Source of the DNA: Candidatus Spongiisociaceae bacterium
Lineage (GTDB): Bacteria; Actinomycetota; Acidimicrobiia; Spongiisociales; Spongiisociaceae
DNA: 64,000 nucleotides
Direction: 5' to 3'
Assembly: GCA_965262915.1 (NCBI GenBank)
Contig: OZ253564.1
Coordinates: forward strand, 928,001-992,000
Shown: positions 32,443 through 38,125 of the stretch, one piece after another
How the letters are laid out: each line of letters opens with the position of its first letter
Position numbering within the stretch: the first letter of the stretch is position 1
Notes under the pieces: generated by a model
Told to the model about the DNA's origin: nothing
What the model saw: only the letters and a program-made list of their open reading frames with translations
The model's database searches: none
Program-made: the position numbers and the translations under genes

Positions 32443-33465
32443 ATGAAGTCTTTGCCTGACGCGGAGTCTGTCCCTCTTCGTGGTGGACCGGTGCTGCGTT
32501 GGGGGATCCTAGCGCCGGGAGTAATAGCCACTAAGTTCGTGCGGTCGTTGAAGCGTCACACCGACCAAGAAGTTACTGCAGTGGGTTCTCGGTCGCGCGA
32601 GCGGGCTGAGCGCTTTGGCCGGCGGTTTTCGATTCCGCGTGCGTACGCTTCTTATGAAGCGTTGCTCGGTGATAGTGATGTTGATATTGTCTATATCGCG
32701 TCCCCGCATAGCCATCATAGAGAGATGGCAGTGGCCTCACTTGAGGCTGGTAAGCATGTTCTCGTCGAGAAACCACTGGCCACTACAGCGTTAGAGGCGC
32801 AGGCCATTAGCGATTCAGTAAGTATTCACAATAGGTTTGCGATGGAGGCCATGCATACGCGCTTTCATCCGAGGACTAGCGTCTTGGAAAAGTTGCTAGA
32901 GGACGGTGAACTCGGGCAAGTACGAATGGTTGCAGCGGATTTGGGGGCGGTCTTCCCTGTAGATCATGGTAACCGACTCTATGATCCGGCGCTTGGGGGC
33001 GGGGCTCTATTGGACATGGGGGTTTATTCAGTTTGGTTCGCCGTCTTCATTATGGGCTTGCCAACCCGCGTTCAGTGCGTCGGAGAACTTACTTCAACAG
33101 GTGTCGATGGTCAATCCATAACTCTGTTGACCAATGAGAGTGGTCAACAAGCAGTTGCAAGTTGCAGTCTCTATACATTTGGCTCTGGAGAGGCCAGCAT
33201 AAACGGTTCGGGTGGCCGGGTCTTGATCCCTTCGCGCCATCCTGCTCCTGGTGGATTCACGCTGTATGATGATAAGAACGAACTTGTTGCGGAATACATC
33301 GATCGATCAGGCCTTCTCACCGCCGAGGATGGATTGTGCAGACAGGCGGTCTGGGCTGCCCGGCATGTCTCGGATGGTTTGACGCAGTCGCCACTGCATC
33401 CTCTGTCGATGTCTATAGATGTGCTACAGGTGCTCGATGAAGCTCGTGCGCAACTAGTGTCCTGA
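32443..33465 (+). CDS. Gfo/Idh/MocA family oxidoreductase; last codons and stop supplied by the IS630 end
   Basis: LRWGILAPGVIA, GKHVLVEKPLA and GGGALLDMGVY. Confidence 0.9.
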   Translation: MKSLPDAESVPLRGGPVLRWGILAPGVIATKFVRSLKRHTDQEVTAVGSRSRERAERFGRRFSIPRAYASYEALLGDSDVDIVYIASPHSHHREMAVASLEAGKHVLVEKPLATTALEAQAISDSVSIHNRFAMEAMHTRFHPRTSVLEKLLEDGELGQVRMVAADLGAVFPVDHGNRLYDPALGGGALLDMGVYSVWFAVFIMGLPTRVQCVGELTSTGVDGQSITLLTNESGQQAVASCSLYTFGSGEASINGSGGRVLIPSRHPAPGGFTLYDDKNELVAEYIDRSGLLTAEDGLCRQAVWAARHVSDGLTQSPLHPLSMSIDVLQVLDEARAQLVS

Positions 33466-34547
33466 TTCGGGGATTCGTTGTAGATAGTTGGTGAGGTTGT
33501 CGAAGATTTGGTCGGCGGTTTTGTGCCAGATGAAGGGTTTGGGGTTTTGGATCCAGTGTTGGGTCCATTCGTTGATGGCGTCGGTGAGTTCGGCTACGGA
33601 TCGGTGGGTGCCTCGGCGTATTTGTTTGGTGGTGAGTTCGGAGAACCGTCGCTCGACGAGGTTCATCCACGAGGCGTAGGTGGGTGTGAAATGGAAACTA
33701 AAGCGGGGGTGGCGTTGCAGCCAGCGCTGTATGGGCTCGGTTTTGTGGGGCGACGCGTTGTCCAACACGACGTGGACGTCTAGTTCGGGGGGGACTTCGC
33801 GGTTGATGAGGTTTAGGAACGTCTGGAATTCTTCGGTGCGGTTGCGTCGTGTCATGGAGGTGATGACCCGGCCGGTGGCGGTGTCGAGCGCGGCCCCGAG
33901 GTTGGTGGTGCCGTACCGGCGGTAGTCGTGGGTGCGCCGCTGGGGGGTCCGGGCAACAGGGGCAGGATCGGTGCGGTGCGGTCGAGGGCCTGTATCTGGG
34001 ATTTGTGGTCCACGCAGAGCACCACCGCCGCGTCCGGAGGGTTCAGGTACAAACCCGCCAGGTCACGGACCTTTTCCACGAACTGCGGATCGGGAGATAT
34101 CTTGAAATCTTCGGTCCGGTGCGGCTTGAGACCGAACGCCCGCCATATCCTTAGGATCGACGACTGGGACAGGCCGACGGCCCTCGCCATGGACCGGGTC
34201 GACCAGTGCGTAGCATCCGCAGGGGTCTCCTCCAGGGTCTTGACCACCACCTCCTCCACCTTGGCGTCGTCTATGAGGCGGGGAGGCCCGGGACGGGGAT
34301 CGTCGTACAGACCGTCGAGACGGCGCTGGGCGAAACGGTTCCGCCACTTGGAAACGGTGTTGGTGCTGCAACCCAGTTCGGTGGCGATGTCGACATTGGC
34401 GCGGTCTTGGGCCGCGCCTAGGACCACACGGCACCGCATCGCCAACCCCTGTGGAGTGGAGGGCCGCCGCGCCCAACGCTCCAGTGTCTCGCGTTCGGTA
34501 GCATCCAAGTCGATAACCACTGCTTTACGACCCCGCCGTTTTTTCAT
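33454..34547 (-). pseudogene. IS630 transposase, frameshifted
   Basis: HTH (KWRNRF, THWSTRSMA) and DDE (VDHKSQIQ, VLDNASPH, NLVER); frame change at the C6 run 33942-33947. Confidence 0.88.
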
Positions 34548-34629
34548 CAGCTGTTCCCAATATGGGCTATTACTGAACTACTTACACCATAGCAGAATAA
34601 GTCAAACGATCAAAGAATCAGGACACTAG
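33454..34629 (-). mobile_element. IS630 family insertion sequence
   Basis: Perfect 15-bp inverted ends CTAGTGTCCTGATTC / GAATCAGGACACTAG including the CTAG/TA target; transposase inside. Confidence 0.92.
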
Positions 34630-34710
34630 ATGGTCAGTTCCAAGCGGTTAGTGGTCGGGGGAGCGGGAGGGACCTGCAAGAGTCTCCGGGAAACCACTCA
34701 TACTTAAGGT

Positions 34711-34905
34711 GACCTCGACCGGGAGGGGCCTGGTCTGACCCACCGGGAAACTGGCGGTTGTGCCTTACCCCGGATCTGTCGGCTGGGCAACGGTGGGGGG
34801 GGAACGGGCAGCCAGCCCGGAGCGGATGTGACCTCATAGGAGCTTTGTTCGTTTCTCCCACACCCTGAGTGGTTTGTCCACCCGCTTCGGACCGGCGCTG
34901 CCAGA
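34711..34905 (+). ncRNA. Putative IS110 bridge RNA (limits approximate)
   Basis: Two stem-enclosed loops with guides CCGGGAAAC (34743-51), CCCCGGAT (34768-75), CATAGGAGC (34835-43) and TGAGTGGTTT (34866-75), matching the flanks and element ends. Confidence 0.75.
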
Positions 34906-34942
34906 TAAGCCTATCCAACACAAATAGGGGGGCGCAGACAGC

Positions 34943-36174
34943 ATGTCAGGACGAGACCAGGTCGATGTGTATGGCGGGGTTGACACCCATCGGGATACCC
35001 ATGTTGGGGCGGTGGTGGATGCTACCGGTCGCCTGTTGGGGTCGGAGGAGTCGGGGCCGACTCCCCAGGATATGTGCAGTTGGAGAGATGGCTTCGCTCC
35101 TGGGGCCAGGTGGTTCAGGTCGGTGTGGAAGGCACCGGCAGTTACGGCGCCGGCTTGGCCCGTCATCTGACCGCAGCAGGTGTCGAGGTGGTAGAGGTGA
35201 ACCGTCCTAACCGCCAGTTGTGCCGCCTTCGGGGCAAGACCGACACCGTAGACGCCGAAGCCGCTGCCAGAGCTGCTCTTAGCGGAGCGGCCACCGCCCG
35301 GCCCAAAGCTGGGGATGGACCGGTCGAAGGAATAAGGATGCTGCGTGTGGCTCGCCGCTCAGCGGTCAAGGCCCGCACCCAGGCCGCCAACCAGATCCAT
35401 GCTCTAGTGGTAACCGCCCCAGAACAGGTCAAACACCAACTACGGGGCTTCAATCTCCGAACACAGGTCAGAATCTGCGCTCGTTGGCGTCCTGGTGAAA
35501 CACAGACCACCACCGCATACGCCAAGAGGGCACTGCGGCACCTAGCCCGCCGATACCAGACCCTCGACACCGAGATCACACAACTCGACACAGAGATCCG
35601 CCGTCTCTGCGCACGGACCAACCCGGCGCTCCTAGCCGCTACCGGCGTGGGTCCCGACTCCGCTGCCGCGCTGCTGGTGGCCGCCGGTGACAACCCCGGA
35701 CGGATGAACACCGAAGCGTCCTTCGCGGCGCTGTGCGCCCTCAGCCCCGTCCAAGCATCATCGGGACGAACAATTCGCCACCGGCTCAACCGAGGCGGCG
35801 ACCGCCAAGCGAACAACGCGCTATGGCGAATAGCCACCAACCGGATGCGCACCGAACCACGAACCATCGAATACACCCGCAGGCGTCAAGCCGAAGGCAA
35901 AACCCGCCGAGAGATCATCCGCTGCCTCAAACGGCACATCGCACGCGAGATCCACCACCTGCTCACCAACCCAACCCCAACACCGCACGGCAACGATCTA
36001 CGCCTCCAACGTCACCAAGCCCGACAAACCCTCACCGACGTCGCCCAACAACTCCAAGTCCATCCCACCCTCATATCACTACTCGAACGAGGCCTCCACC
36101 ACAACCACCAGCTCGCCACCCGATACCAGCAATGGCTCACCGACACCACGAGAAACCCGATTTGCAAAACATAG
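34943..36174 (+). pseudogene. IS110 recombinase with C-terminal XRE-like HTH, one frameshift near 35065
   Basis: GGVDTH, VEGTGSYG and KTDTVDA (DEDD); SPVQASSG and RLNRGGDRQAN; split over ORFs 34943.. and 35074.. Confidence 0.88.
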
Positions 36175-36415
36175 GAGCATCCGGGGCGGTTCACAATAGA
36201 TCGACCACCCCGACCCCACCACTAGCCAATCGAACGTGCCCACCAACACCTCCACCACACGAATCCGCCGCAGGCACACACCAGACCGACATTCGGCCAT
36301 TATCGCTTGACGCTAGACATTCCGCTCTGCGATACTTCATCTGGACGGACACAACAGAGCTAGACACCCAGTCAGCTAGGTAGCGGTTGCGTCGTTTGAT
36401 TAGGAGGTAATCGTT

Positions 36416-38125
36416 ATGCGGGATACGTATATGCGTCGGGCACTGTTTTCTTGGTTGATCGTATTCGCTTTGGTCGTCGTAGCCTGTGGCGGTGACGACG
36501 ACACGCCACAGGCTACGACCCCTGCAGCAACGGCGGCGGTCACGACTGCAGCCGCTCCCAGCGACACATCTGCGCCCGGGACTACTTCCGCCACAGCCGA
36601 CACATCTGCGCCTACTACTGCCCCTGCCACTACTTCTGCAACGGAAACTCCTGAACCTGCAATGTCGGGTGGCACCATAATCATGGCCGAGGTGAAGGCA
36701 CCTGCCACGCTCGATCCGACCCAGACCTCGGAGACCCAGTCCGGGTTTGCCTGGCAACTCTCCTACGAGACCCTGGTTCTGGTCGCAGGGGGCGGGACGA
36801 GGATCGATCCGCTTCTCGCCACCGATTGGACAATCAGCGATGACGGGTTGGTGTACAGCTTCAACCTGCGCGAAGGCGTCACCTTCCACAATGGAGAGCC
36901 GTTCACCGCAGACGATGTCGTGTTTTCGTTCGAGCGGCTCATGAGTGACGGGCTCCCGTTCGCGCAGGCGCTGTTCCCGAATCTCGAATCAGTAGTCGAG
37001 ACGGGCCCGATGTCGGTTGACTTCATTCACTCTGCGCCGGTGGCGAGTTTCCTGCTCCAGCTCGGCGACCCGTTCGTGTTCGGGTCCGGAATCCTGAACC
37101 GGGAGGCGGGCGAAGCCGGGGACCCGAACCTCGAGATGATCGGTACAGGTCCCTTCAAGATGGTTTCCTACGATCCGCTCGACTCGCTGGTCCTCGAGAG
37201 GTACGAGGGCTACTGGGGCGACCCGGCCAAGCCGGACAGCGTCATCATTCGGTACATGCCCGAACGAACCGCGCAGTTGATTGCGTTGGTCGCCGGCGAA
37301 ATCGACATCATGGTGCCGGATGCCGACATCGCGTTGAATCTGGAAGGTCGGGGCGATGTTACGGTTCTACCGCTTCAGGGCTGTGACTACGGCCAGGTCG
37401 ATTTCAATAACGTCGGACCACTGCGCGACGTTCGCGTGCGGAGAGCGATTGCCCTGGCCATCGATCGGCAGGAGATTGCCGAGCAGGCGTATCTGGGCCT
37501 TGCCCAGCCAATGGGCTACACGAGCCCCTGCTTCGGGTGGTCGATCCCCGCTGAGGATCTCCCCTACTACACGCAGGATATCGAGGAAGCCAAGCGACTC
37601 CTCGCAGAAGCGGGATACGCCGACGGTCTGTCGATCAGGTTCAATCACCAGGCAGGCGTGAGCACGTCGAGCGATAGGGCTCAGGAGGTCATGCAGGCTC
37701 AGCTCGCCGAGGTCGGTATCGAAGTCACGATCGAGACGAACGAGTTCGGTGTGTGGCTCGATCAGTATCTGAGTGCCTTGGAGGTGGAAGAAGCGGGCGG
37801 TCCTGCGACCTACGACTTGACGACACTCCACGCCGGATTCCGGAGCAATCCGACGGCCGTGCTTCGCGTCAGAGAGGGACGACACGGCGGCGGCGTGCCC
37901 CCAGGAATCAACGAGCAGTATGCCGCCGCGAATGTCGGTTCGCCGGAGGACTACATCGACAACATCAACGAGCTCGTCCGGCGGCAGGTGGACCAGGTGT
38001 TCCCAGGTTTCAAGACCGTCGCGTTCACGATCTGGGTTGCCTTCCGGAGTGACCAGGTGACGGGGGTGGACATCGACGGCACGCTGAACAGGCGATTCCT
38101 CTTCGACGTAACTGAAGTCGGCTAA
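36416..38125 (+). CDS. Peptide/nickel ABC transporter substrate-binding lipoprotein (family 5)
   Basis: AGGAGG RBS, lipobox VVVAC, LREGVTFHNGEPFTADDV, GTGPF and VRRAIALAIDR. Confidence 0.93.
   Translation: MRDTYMRRALFSWLIVFALVVVACGGDDDTPQATTPAATAAVTTAAAPSDTSAPGTTSATADTSAPTTAPATTSATETPEPAMSGGTIIMAEVKAPATLDPTQTSETQSGFAWQLSYETLVLVAGGGTRIDPLLATDWTISDDGLVYSFNLREGVTFHNGEPFTADDVVFSFERLMSDGLPFAQALFPNLESVVETGPMSVDFIHSAPVASFLLQLGDPFVFGSGILNREAGEAGDPNLEMIGTGPFKMVSYDPLDSLVLERYEGYWGDPAKPDSVIIRYMPERTAQLIALVAGEIDIMVPDADIALNLEGRGDVTVLPLQGCDYGQVDFNNVGPLRDVRVRRAIALAIDRQEIAEQAYLGLAQPMGYTSPCFGWSIPAEDLPYYTQDIEEAKRLLAEAGYADGLSIRFNHQAGVSTSSDRAQEVMQAQLAEVGIEVTIETNEFGVWLDQYLSALEVEEAGGPATYDLTTLHAGFRSNPTAVLRVREGRHGGGVPPGINEQYAAANVGSPEDYIDNINELVRRQVDQVFPGFKTVAFTIWVAFRSDQVTGVDIDGTLNRRFLFDVTEVG

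What the first reader, a model, noticed from the sequence alone, without database searches (positions are those of the whole stretch)
34711..34905. IS110 bridge RNA with all four guides readable against its own insertion site
Seen: target loop closed by CCTGGTCTGAC(34729-39)/GTCGGCTGGG(34778-87) holds CCGGGAAAC (identical to left flank 34686-94) and CCCCGG (reverse complement of 36181-86). Donor loop closed by CCGGAGCGGATGTGAC/GTCCACCCGCTTCGG holds CATAGGAGC (identical to right end 36170-78) and TGAGTGG (reverse complement of 34694-34700). Known: this order and polarity match the IS621 bridge RNA. Inference: a programmable RNA-guided recombinase with target CCGGGAAA-CC-GGGG and a CC rather than CT core. 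The left donor guide match stops 2 nt short of the core, unlike IS621.
Basis: partly seen in the sequence, partly recalled or inferred. Interest (0 to 1): 0.85.

Follow-up and report, generated by a model that had tools for sequence, protein, structure and literature searches.

The report
IS110 bridge RNA, guides match site
This is a genuine bridge-RNA gene in the left end of an IS110-type insertion sequence whose four guide segments match its own insertion site and ends, a known kind of RNA-guided recombination system, here in a copy whose recombinase gene is broken by a frameshift.

Summary
The region is the 247-nt left end of a 1,486-bp IS110-group element (34696-36181). It encodes a two-loop bridge RNA upstream of a DEDD/Tnp recombinase.

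The genome holds 31 related elements with 7 guide types. With relatives, 12 guide types score 14.1 of 15 against their own flanks and 7.1 against others. None of 100,000 permutations reached the observed sum. Both loop-closing stems are kept with compensatory changes.

Corrections:
- Only the second core base, C, is shared. The donor core is TC and the target core is CC.
- The right donor guide match is 10 nt, including a 3-nt handshake.
- The left donor guide stops 1 nt before the TC core.

The target is an IS3-type terminal repeat. The recombinase frameshift also appears in DNA contigs from two other studies. Transcription has only a weak hint.

Verdict: a real new member of a known kind, with some variant geometry.

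The parts
34680..34695 (+). Left half of the target. It is part of a 29-bp IS3-type terminal-repeat motif (AGAGTCT CCGGGAAA CC). Left target = 34686-34693; target core CC = 34694-34695.
   Evidence: 9 empty copies of CCGGGAAACCCGGGG in the genome; the multi-copy host encodes HTH_21 + rve.
34696..36181 (+). IS110-group insertion sequence, 1,486 bp counting one shared core C. Left end is 247 nt and right end is 6 nt after the stop codon.
   Evidence: ends ACTCATA... and ...TAGGAGCAT-C are conserved in the 25 of 31 own-genome elements that keep both ends (26 left and 30 right ends parsed).
34699..34704 (+). -10-like hexamer CATACT. With TTTGCA in the right end it would form a promoter only across the circle junction.
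   Evidence: E00 scores 8 of 12. Most relatives have TTGACA-17-CATAAT or CATACT, scoring 10-11 of 12.
34728..34739 (+). Target-binding loop closing stem, 5' strand. It pairs with 34778-34788, with U34736 bulged.
   Evidence: helix 1 has 93.9% of cells paired, and 5 of 15 pairs have changes on both sides.
34743..34752 (+). Left target guide CCGGGAAAC (same sense as 34686-94), followed by a U that could wobble-pair opposite core position 2.
34753..34764 (+). Inner hairpin of the target loop (GGC/GCC).
   Evidence: the 3 pairs are invariant, so this is uninformative on its own.
34768..34775 (+). Right target guide CCCCGG (antisense to 36181-86), plus AU complementary to the donor's A-T (36179-80), a handshake-like position.
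   Evidence: The GAUC is invariant in all 24 aligned RNAs.
34778..34788 (+). Target-binding loop closing stem, 3' strand.
34816..34831 (+). Donor-binding loop closing stem, 5' strand. It pairs with 34875-34889.
   Evidence: -22.1 kcal/mol, formed in 24 of 24 sequences. UG/CA changes to CA/UG as a compensatory pair.
34834..34842 (+). Left donor guide CATAGGAGC (same sense as right end 36170-78).
   Evidence: The A/G at the 8th base from the end covaries with the right end in the 4 records with G.
34865..34874 (+). Right donor guide TGAGT (antisense to the left-end bases 34696-700). It is followed by GG opposite the target core CC and by UUU opposite AAA of the left target (a handshake guide).
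   Evidence: 10 of 10 match to 34691-34700. The orthologues in a sister genome carry U instead of G where their junction has A instead of C.
34875..34889 (+). Donor-binding loop closing stem, 3' strand.
34943..36174 (+). IS110-family recombinase gene in two frames. The N-terminal 35 codons (GGVDTH) run 34943-35047. The rest runs from 35035 in another frame to the stop at 36172-74. The frame changes within 35035-35047.
   Evidence: The same frame break is in DNA contigs of two other studies.
36161..36166 (+). -35-like hexamer TTTGCA in the right end.
36170..36181 (+). Left donor CATAGGAGC (36170-78), unmatched A (36179), donor core TC (36180-81).
36182..36193 (+). Right half of the target. Right target CGGGG = 36182-86, followed by the rest of the terminal-repeat motif up to GGTTCA.
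   Evidence: In one search, similarity of an independent copy ends at 36194.

Best explanation
Bases 34711-34905 encode the bridge RNA of an IS110-group insertion sequence (34696-36181).

How the RNA is built: it has two internal loops, each closed by a stem. [quoted passage not shown] How it would work: bound to a tetramer of the DEDD/Tnp recombinase, the RNA would bring the circular form of the element (junction ...GGAGCAT-C-ACTCATA...) to the site CCGGGAAA-CC-CGGGG. That site lies inside an IS3-type terminal inverted repeat. Strands would be exchanged after the shared C. The bases next to the right guides (AU, UUU and one G) are complementary to the other partner, which fits the handshake step described for IS621.

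What is shown here: the sequence relations, the covariation, the stems and the family membership of the protein. What is inferred by homology to IS621: RNA production, the circular form and catalysis.

This copy is most likely inactive on its own, because its recombinase gene carries a frameshift.
For: - All reported strings verified. Chance expectations are 0.0027, 0.19, 0.0011 and 0.010 per guide.
- Protein: Pfam PF01548 and PF02371. NCBIfam NF033542 'IS110 family RNA-guided transposase' scores 161.4 bits against a cut-off of 140. A family profile hits the IS621 transposase 8wt6 at E = 1.5e-12, with the E, D-x-x-D and S-G motifs aligned.
- 31 related elements in the same genome.
- 12 guide types: own flanks score 14.1 of 15, others' flanks 7.1 of 15, and 0 of 100,000 permutations reach the observed sum.
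- Of 80 named Acidimicrobiia loci, 47 parsed for the target loop and 26 also parsed at both flanks. In 22 of those 26 the left guide matches at least 7 of 9 and the right guide at least 5 of 6, across 19 guide types.
- Empty sites fix the target and the single shared C in five subfamilies.
- E00-type copies in two sister genomes (3 fully parsed in G002, 1 in G001) sit in the same repeat motif. A further copy in a metatranscriptome sits in a different IS3-like host copy.
- Structure: 90.1% of cells paired against 34-50% when slid. There are 29 double-sided changes against 11.1 +/- 2.4 in shuffles (0 of 500).
- Many G-U pairs mark the + strand as the RNA strand.
- The predicted circle junction gives TTGACA-17-CATAAT or CATACT (10-11 of 12) in 21 of the 25 scored elements.
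Against: - No direct proof of an RNA with defined ends. The only RNA-library contigs come from two runs of one study, carry upstream host sequence, and could be DNA carry-over.
- The minimum-free-energy fold of the whole left end is no better than shuffles (z = 0.37).
- No Rfam family matches.
- No sigma-70-type promoter is found in the integrated left end. E00's own junction promoter scores only 8 of 12.
- The recombinase is frameshifted. Nine perfect empty targets in the genome are unoccupied against one occupied.
- E00's target-loop stem is the weakest of 24 (-17.2 against -25.7 to -28.4 kcal/mol in its orthologues).
- Exceptions to the guide/site match: L012 (5 of 9 and 2 of 6 with its own guides), L074 (3 and 3), and the G002 orthologues (7-8 of 9).
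- The left guide's register relative to the core differs by 1 nt between subfamilies, and IS621 gives no precedent for this.
Confidence: 0.9

Rival explanations
1. This is a relic. The bridge-RNA gene is still readable, but the whole element is dead. It has been fixed at this locus since the frameshift, and neither the RNA nor the protein does anything now.
For: - The frameshift at 35035-35047 separates the first catalytic Asp from the rest of the protein.
- The same frame break, at the same locus, is in DNA contigs from two other studies (X3, X6).
- One occupied site against 9 perfect empty targets.
- It has the weakest target-loop stem of 24, having lost the outer CCGG/CCGG pairs kept by its orthologues.
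- Its junction promoter scores 8 of 12.
Against: - All four guides and both inner stems are intact.
- E01 and E02 have the same 8 of 12 junction promoter, yet have intact reading frames and more than one copy.
- RNA-library contigs cover the left end of a near-identical copy.
Confidence: 0.55
2. The RNA is made and acts in trans. With recombinases supplied by the roughly 30 paralogous elements, whose donor ends are nearly identical, it could move this or other elements into CCGGGAAA-CC-CGGGG sites.
For: - Donor ends and donor guides are nearly the same in all subfamilies (xATAGGAGC and CACTCA).
- One E05-family element (L012) sits at a site that matches the E09-type guides 13 of 15 but its own guides 7 of 15, as expected from trans guiding.
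- Trans supply of bridge RNA works for IS621 (passages of PMC11208160).
Against: - No second element of any subfamily is found in an E00-type site (9 empty, 1 occupied).
- Paralogous recombinases are only 67-73% identical to the intact E00-type orthologue (G002; itself 84% identical to E00's ORF).
- There is no expression proof.
Confidence: 0.25
3. No RNA is involved. The internal copies of flank and end sequences are DNA sites for a protein-only site-specific recombinase, or the matches are chance.
For: No transcript ends are shown. The whole-region fold is not better than shuffles.
Against: - The internal segments covary with sequence outside the element, in 12 and 19 guide types. A fixed protein-DNA code would not produce this.
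- Paired stems have compensatory changes and strand-specific G-U pairs.
- The joint chance expectation is about 1e-8.
- The protein belongs to the family shown experimentally to use such an RNA.
Confidence: 0.02

Closest known systems
IS621 bridge RNA and recombinase (E. coli; Durrant et al. 2024, PMC11208160; Hiraizumi et al. 2024, PMC11208158; passages read)
   Same: - The RNA is encoded in a long left end upstream of a DEDD + Tnp recombinase.
- The target loop comes first and the donor loop second.
- Left guides are in the same sense as the top strand, and right guides are antisense to it.
- The second core base is invariant and the first is variable.
- Bases next to the right guides are complementary to the other partner (handshake).
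- A promoter forms across the circle junction.
   Different: - The invariant core base is C, not T.
- Donor (TC) and natural targets (CC, AC) differ at core position 1, whereas IS621 has CT in both.
- The contiguous left-donor-guide match skips position 7.
- The left-target-guide register differs by 1 nt between subfamilies.
- The protein is distant: only a family profile, not the single sequence, finds 8wt6.
- This copy's recombinase gene is frameshifted.
ISCro4 / IS622 (10.1101/2025.05.14.653916, passages read; PDB 9t56)
   Same: Same two-loop, 14-nt recognition scheme with handshake guides. The family profile hits its transposase at E = 9.9e-12.
   Different: It uses CT or GT cores that are matched between donor and target. 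It comes from an enterobacterial host.
[quoted passage not shown]
   Same: Same lifestyle. The element inserts at a fixed position inside the terminal inverted repeat of another mobile element. Here that is an IS3-type repeat for this element and an ISL3 end for the largest subfamily.
   Different: IS1111-group elements carry the RNA in a long right end. Here the left end is long (247 nt) and the right end is 6 nt.
CazIS110-1 top-strand insertion and IS621 single-strand excision (abstracts only: 10.1101/2025.10.25.684509; 10.64898/2026.08.31.748434)
   Same: Every informative natural junction here keeps the target's core base at the left junction and the donor's T at the right junction. That is the product expected from transfer of the top strand.
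   Different: This is an inference from genome sequence only. It holds only if the exchange region is 2 nt.

Membership tests
IS110 family, IS110 group (insertion sequence) | Recombinase with a RuvC-like DEDD domain (PF01548) and a Tnp domain (PF02371) | tested here: met
   PF02371 at 5.9e-17 and PF01548 at 6e-16. NF033542 at 161.4 bits against a cut-off of 140; family profile against IS621 8wt6, E = 1.5e-12.
IS110 family, IS110 group (insertion sequence) | Intact catalytic set (D, E, D, D, S) in one reading frame | tested here: not met
   The E, D-x-x-D and S-G motifs are present and aligned to IS621. The first Asp (GGVDTH) lies in another frame, with the frame break at 35035-35047. The break is also in contigs of two other studies.
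IS110 family, IS110 group (insertion sequence) | Long non-coding left end, short right end, no long terminal inverted repeats, no target duplication beyond the core | tested here: met
   The left end is 247 nt and the right end is 6 nt after the stop. Comparing junctions with empty sites shows only one shared C.
Bridge RNA (IS621 type) | Two internal loops, each closed by a conserved stem | tested here: met
   both stems form in 24 of 24 distinct sequences; 90.1% of cells paired against 34-50% when slid, with 29 double-sided changes against 11.1 in shuffles (0 of 500). The sequences are related, so the shuffle control overstates.
Bridge RNA (IS621 type) | First loop: the 5' side is the same sense as the left target and the 3' side is antisense to the right target, and both covary with the insertion site | tested here: met
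   12 guide types, 14.1 against 7.1 of 15, 0 of 100,000 permutations; 22 of 26 named loci. Exceptions: L012, L074, L070, L072 and L133.
Bridge RNA (IS621 type) | Second loop: the 5' side is the same sense as the right end and the 3' side is antisense to the left end | tested here: met
   The donor ends vary little, so covariation is limited to one A/G position of the left donor (4 records with G) and to the core and handshake positions.
Bridge RNA (IS621 type) | The same CT core in donor and target, included in all four pairings | tested here: not met
   The core is N-C. The donor has TC and the targets have CC, AC or TC. The right guides cover the C. The left target guide covers core position 1 and reaches position 2 only through a G-U pair in this copy. 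The left donor guide's contiguous match stops at position 6.
Bridge RNA (IS621 type) | Handshake guides next to the right guides, complementary to the non-cognate partner | tested here: met
   UUU (34872-74) pairs with AAA of the left target, and AU (34774-75) pairs with A-T of the donor. Window copy against G002 orthologues: G changes to U in the guide where the junction changes from C to A. In other subfamilies the match is only 1-2 nt.
Bridge RNA (IS621 type) | Transcribed as a non-coding RNA | tested here: inconclusive
   contigs from two RNA-library runs of one study cover 34680-34885 and 34680-34855 of a near-identical copy, and nothing from 34942 to 35112. DNA carry-over is not excluded, and contigs cannot show ends or strand.
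Bridge RNA (IS621 type) | Directs recombination, and reprogramming the loops redirects it | not testable with these tools
   This needs a bench assay.
Bridge RNA (IS621 type) | Match to a curated covariance model | tested here: inconclusive
   no Rfam 15 family matched 34000-37000 at E <= 1 apart from one chance microRNA hit. I could not establish whether Rfam holds a bridge-RNA family.

The most novel reading that the evidence does not exclude
In this Acidimicrobiia branch, the exchange core may have shrunk to a single invariant C. Position 8 would then act as a handshake base: the right donor guide reads the target's base and the right target guide reads the donor's T. The left target guide would tolerate a 1-nt register shift.

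Two further readings follow. Natural junctions may record top-strand-only integration. Co-resident subfamilies with near-identical donor ends may guide each other in trans, as with the E05-family element at an E09-type site. If so, one genome would give a natural experiment on questions now argued from IS621 and CazIS110-1 in vitro.
Probability: 0.3. Interest if true: 0.6.

Novelty: new member of a known kind. Interest (0 to 1): 0.4.

Why it matters
Bridge RNAs have been a known class since 2024, so finding one in an IS110 left end is expected rather than surprising.

The value here is the context. One 5-Mb genome holds 31 related elements with seven guide types. Empty and occupied copies of the same targets sit side by side. 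That allows the target, the shared core base, the handshake positions and the guide register to be read directly from sequence.

The family differs from IS621 in three ways that bear on guide-design rules:
- the invariant core base is C;
- donor and target cores differ at position 8;
- the left-guide register shifts by 1 nt between subfamilies.

The junctions and one apparently trans-guided insertion also bear on the current dispute over single-strand versus Holliday-junction integration. For this particular copy the practical value is low, because its recombinase gene is broken. Intact orthologues exist in a sister genome.

Tried and rejected
- **Whole-region fold.** The minimum-free-energy fold of 34696-34942 gave z = 0.37 and a structure that is not the two-loop one. 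Global MFE is a poor test for RNAs with large internal loops, so I used stems and covariation instead.
- **Rfam scan.** No relevant family matched.
- **Single-sequence PDB search.** It found nothing. A family profile was needed.
- **Promoter and terminator scan of the integrated element.** It found no promoter in the left end and no terminator.
- **Alternative core model.** I tested a donor core AT with the exchange after the left guide's ninth base. It fits E00 and E05 but predicts one C too many at the E01 left junction. A model with a CC core in the donor predicts the wrong number of Cs at one junction or the other. Both were rejected.
- **RNAalifold on the donor loop.** It did not recover the donor-loop outer stem, because a 1-nt indel misaligns its 3' strand. 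I scored it with duplex folds and a hand-set structure. In that structure the outer four pairs are broken in 4-14 of 24 rows for that reason.
- **Second copy of the terminal-repeat motif.** A search of the window found none within 3 mismatches. I therefore cannot say that the neighbouring IS630-like gene owns the repeat.
- **Earlier notes of this scan.** None exist for this genome.
- **RNA-library contigs.** Absence of cover over 34942-35112 in X19 and X20 is not evidence of a transcript end.
- **First version of the right-guide extraction.** It was off by one base and was corrected.

Full report
**1. Observation**

- CCGGGAAAC lies at 34686-94 (left flank) and at 34743-51 (loop).
- CCCCGG at 34768-73 is the reverse complement of 36181-86.
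- CATAGGAGC lies at 36170-78 (right end) and at 34834-42 (loop).
- TGAGTGG at 34865-71 is the reverse complement of 34694-34700.
- Both pairs of closing strands are present.

The last match is longer than reported. TGAGTGGTTT (34865-74) is the reverse complement of 34691-34700.

Chance was estimated from genome-wide word counts. The expected numbers in a 247-nt stretch are 0.0027, 0.19, 0.0011 and 0.010 for the four words. The 10-mer occurs only twice in 5 Mb.

**2. What the element is**

Downstream lies an IS110-family recombinase gene.
- Pfam gives PF01548 and PF02371.
- NCBIfam NF033542 'IS110 family RNA-guided transposase' scores 161.4 bits against a cut-off of 140.
- The single sequence finds no solved structure.
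- A profile of 11 family members finds the IS621 transposase 8wt6 (E = 1.5e-12) and the ISCro4 transposase (9.9e-12). The VEGTG, KTD-x-VDA and SSG motifs align.

The gene is in two frames. The first 35 codons, with the GGVDTH motif, run 34943-35047. The rest runs from 35035 in another frame. Most paralogues have intact frames of about 410 codons, as does the orthologue in a sister genome.

DNA contigs from two other studies cover the same locus. They share its left flank but differ by a GTAT insertion behind 34656 and a 4-nt deletion at 34721. They show no insertion or deletion at the frame break. The frameshift is therefore real and shared, not an assembly slip.

**3. Relatives and ends**

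The genome holds 31 related elements at 72-77% identity to this one, which is single-copy. Where the ends are kept, elements begin ACTCATA (26 of 31) and end TAGGAGCAT followed by C (30 of 31). Twenty-five have both ends. The rest are truncated or interrupted.

**4. Target, circle junction and core**

The same genome holds empty copies of the targets.
- For this element, nine copies read CCGGGAAACCCGGGG.
- The occupied site reads ...CCGGGAAACC|ACTCAT... at the left and ...GCAT|CCGGGG... at the right.
- The two junctions therefore carry one C more than the empty site.

The same holds for four other subfamilies: E05 (ACTGAAATCCGATGA, 12 empty copies), E01, E24 and E08.

The element therefore contributes one C. 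The circle junction would be GGAGCAT-C-ACTCATA in all of them.

By the IS621 numbering, the core is positions 8-9. Position 9 is always C. Position 8 is T in the donor and C, A or T in the targets. The left junction always keeps the target's base, and the right junction always keeps the donor's T.

**5. Guides**

Definitions come from passages of PMC11208160 and PMC11208158.

- *Right target guide.* It pairs with core C plus five bases of right target, in one fixed register in every subfamily.
- *Left target guide.* The 9-mer ends at core position 2 in E01, E24, E09, E08 and the sister-genome copies. It ends at core position 1 in this element, the E05 family and E27. There the next base, U, could pair with the G opposite position 9. 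I have no explanation for this 1-nt register difference.
- *Left donor guide.* It matches nine bases, misses A36179, and is then followed by UU opposite T-C.
- *Right donor guide.* It covers ACTCA and the core.
  - Its base opposite position 8 equals the target's base in 9 of 13 guide types by my reading of the table. It never equals the donor's T.
  - In this copy three more bases (UUU) match the left target.
- *Right target side.* The invariant AU next to the right target guide matches the donor's A-T.

This is the handshake logic described for IS621. The sister-genome orthologues carry UGAGUGUUUU where their left junction reads AAAC|ACTCA. The window carries UGAGUGGUUU where its junction reads AACC|ACTCA. 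That is a matched change.

**6. Covariation**

For 12 guide types, the left guide was scored on the best of two registers and added to the right guide.
- Own flanks score 14.1 of 15.
- Other flanks score 7.1 of 15.
- None of 100,000 permutations reaches the observed sum.

High non-cognate values occur only between related guide types.

A scan of one genome per species returned 80 named loci, all but a few from Acidimicrobiia metagenome-assembled genomes.
- 47 of the 80 parsed with the loop motifs.
- 26 of those also parsed at both flanks.
- 25 of the 26 match at least 7 of 9 in the left guide.
- 22 of the 26 also match at least 5 of 6 in the right guide.
- The 26 loci span 19 guide types.
- The misses are L074 (3 and 3), L072 (right end duplicated, 1 of 6), L070 (4 of 6) and L133 (3 of 6).

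Some of these loci are the same places as earlier unnamed loci.

**7. Other copies of this subfamily**

Three fully parsed copies in sister genome G002 and one in G001 (83-85% identical) all sit in the same repeat motif, TCTCCGG(G/A)GAAAC|CGGGGCGGTTC. A fourth G002 copy parsed only at its left junction, which reads GACTCCGGGGGAAC|.

Their left guide matches only 7-8 of 9.

Contigs from an RNA library of another study carry a near-identical left end. It is joined to the body of an IS3-like host copy rather than to the window's flank, and it diverges after GGTTCA on the right. That is an independent insertion at the same target.

**8. Structure**

- RNAalifold recovers the target-loop stems.
- Duplex folds give both closing stems in 24 of 24 distinct sequences, at -17 to -31 kcal/mol. 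This copy's target-loop stem is the weakest.
- On a hand-set structure, 90.1% of cells pair against 34-50% when slid. There are 29 double-sided changes against 11.1 +/- 2.4 in shuffles (0 of 500).
- The rows are related, so these controls overstate.
- Frequent G-U pairs mark the + strand as the RNA strand.
- The whole-region MFE is unremarkable.

**9. Expression**

There is no sigma-70-type promoter in the integrated left end.

Across the predicted circle junction, 21 of the 25 scored elements have TTGACA, a 17-nt spacer, and CATAAT or CATACT (10-11 of 12). This copy, E01 and E02 score 8 of 12.

RNA-library contigs cover 34680-34885 and 34680-34855 of a near-identical copy and nothing over 34942-35112. 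They come from one study and may be DNA. This is a weak hint only.

**10. Context**

The target is a 29-bp motif that ends a multi-copy element encoding HTH_21 + rve, which is IS3-type. The largest subfamily targets a point 9 bp inside the end of an ISL3 element.

In the window the motif lies 133 nt upstream of an IS630-like gene. No inverted second copy is present, so which element owns it is unclear.

**11. Comparison and verdict**

This is an IS110-group bridge RNA by every structural test that could be run. It differs from IS621 in core identity, in a donor/target core mismatch at position 8, and in guide register. Bridge RNAs were predicted in most IS110 elements in 2024, so this is a new member of a known kind.

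This copy is probably inactive on its own.

G032 is unpublished.

Noticed in passing
G000:C1:3663279-3665465 (locus L012, element E11): This is an E05-family element, 98.7% identical to E29 over its whole length. It sits at a site that matches its own guides only 7 of 15 but matches the E09-type guides 13 of 15 (8 of 9 and 5 of 6). The simplest reading is that a co-resident subfamily's bridge RNA guided the insertion in trans.
   Followed up: partly
All occupied sites with an informative core: The left junction always keeps the target's base at core position 8 (C or A). The right junction always keeps the donor's T (30 of 30 right ends read GCAT-C). The reciprocal product was never seen. This fits top-strand transfer as proposed in two preprints (abstracts only), provided the exchange region is 2 nt.
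   Followed up: partly
L036 / L066 / L091 (G021, OZ219922.1 about 1,560,000-1,562,400): An element is inserted into the left-target-guide segment of another copy's bridge-RNA gene (GTCTGACTCACCTTGTAAC|ACTCAT...). The guide's own DNA served as the left half of a target.
   Followed up: no
L072 (OZ244034.1 1,095,450-1,097,843): This element's left guide TTGACAAAC matches the conserved right end (GATTTGACAA...) of related IS110 elements. It lies next to a second partial right end (TAGGAGCAT twice). One IS110 appears to target another's end.
   Followed up: no
L074 (CBDCBK010000010.1): The guides AACTCAACC / CGAGCC do not match its site (3 of 9 and 3 of 6). The site is the ISL3-end target of the E05 type. 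This is either another trans-guided insertion or a drifted guide.
   Followed up: no
Own genome, 25 elements with both ends: The right end carries a -35 box (TTGACA) and the left end a -10 box (CATAAT or CATACT), 17 nt apart, but only across the predicted circle junction. Junction scores are 10-11 of 12 in 21 of 25 (8-9 in the other four), against 6-9 of 12 in the integrated state.
   Followed up: yes
Right flanks of E02-E04, E08 and E16: The E01-type and E08-type targets lie about 20 bp apart in one repeat (...GCGCGAAAAC|GTGGGTTGGGTGGGGTGAAATC|CTTGGAATGGGGG...). Two subfamilies therefore aim at neighbouring points of the same element.
   Followed up: no
window 33454-34547, minus strand: An IS630-like transposase lies in two overlapping frames. 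The HTH part is 33852-34547 and the DDE_3 part is 33454-33855. It sits directly upstream of the insertion site.
   Followed up: partly
E28 (G000:C1:4175027-4177215): The right part of this element is replaced by the inverted end of the ISL3-type host (GGCTCATCGGATTTCAGTGGGG...). An ISL3 copy has inserted into an IS110 copy, the reverse of the usual arrangement.
   Followed up: no
window 34656 and 34721: Contigs of two other studies carry GTAT inserted behind 34656 and lack 4 nt at 34721, just upstream of the target-loop stem. The RNA-library copy also lacks the 4 nt. The window's version is therefore the less common form among the four runs laid.
   Followed up: no
window 36477-36518: A perfect 15-bp inverted repeat scored as a microRNA family at E = 0.53. 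It lies inside the 5' part of the ORF 36416-38125 and is a chance match to that family.
   Followed up: no
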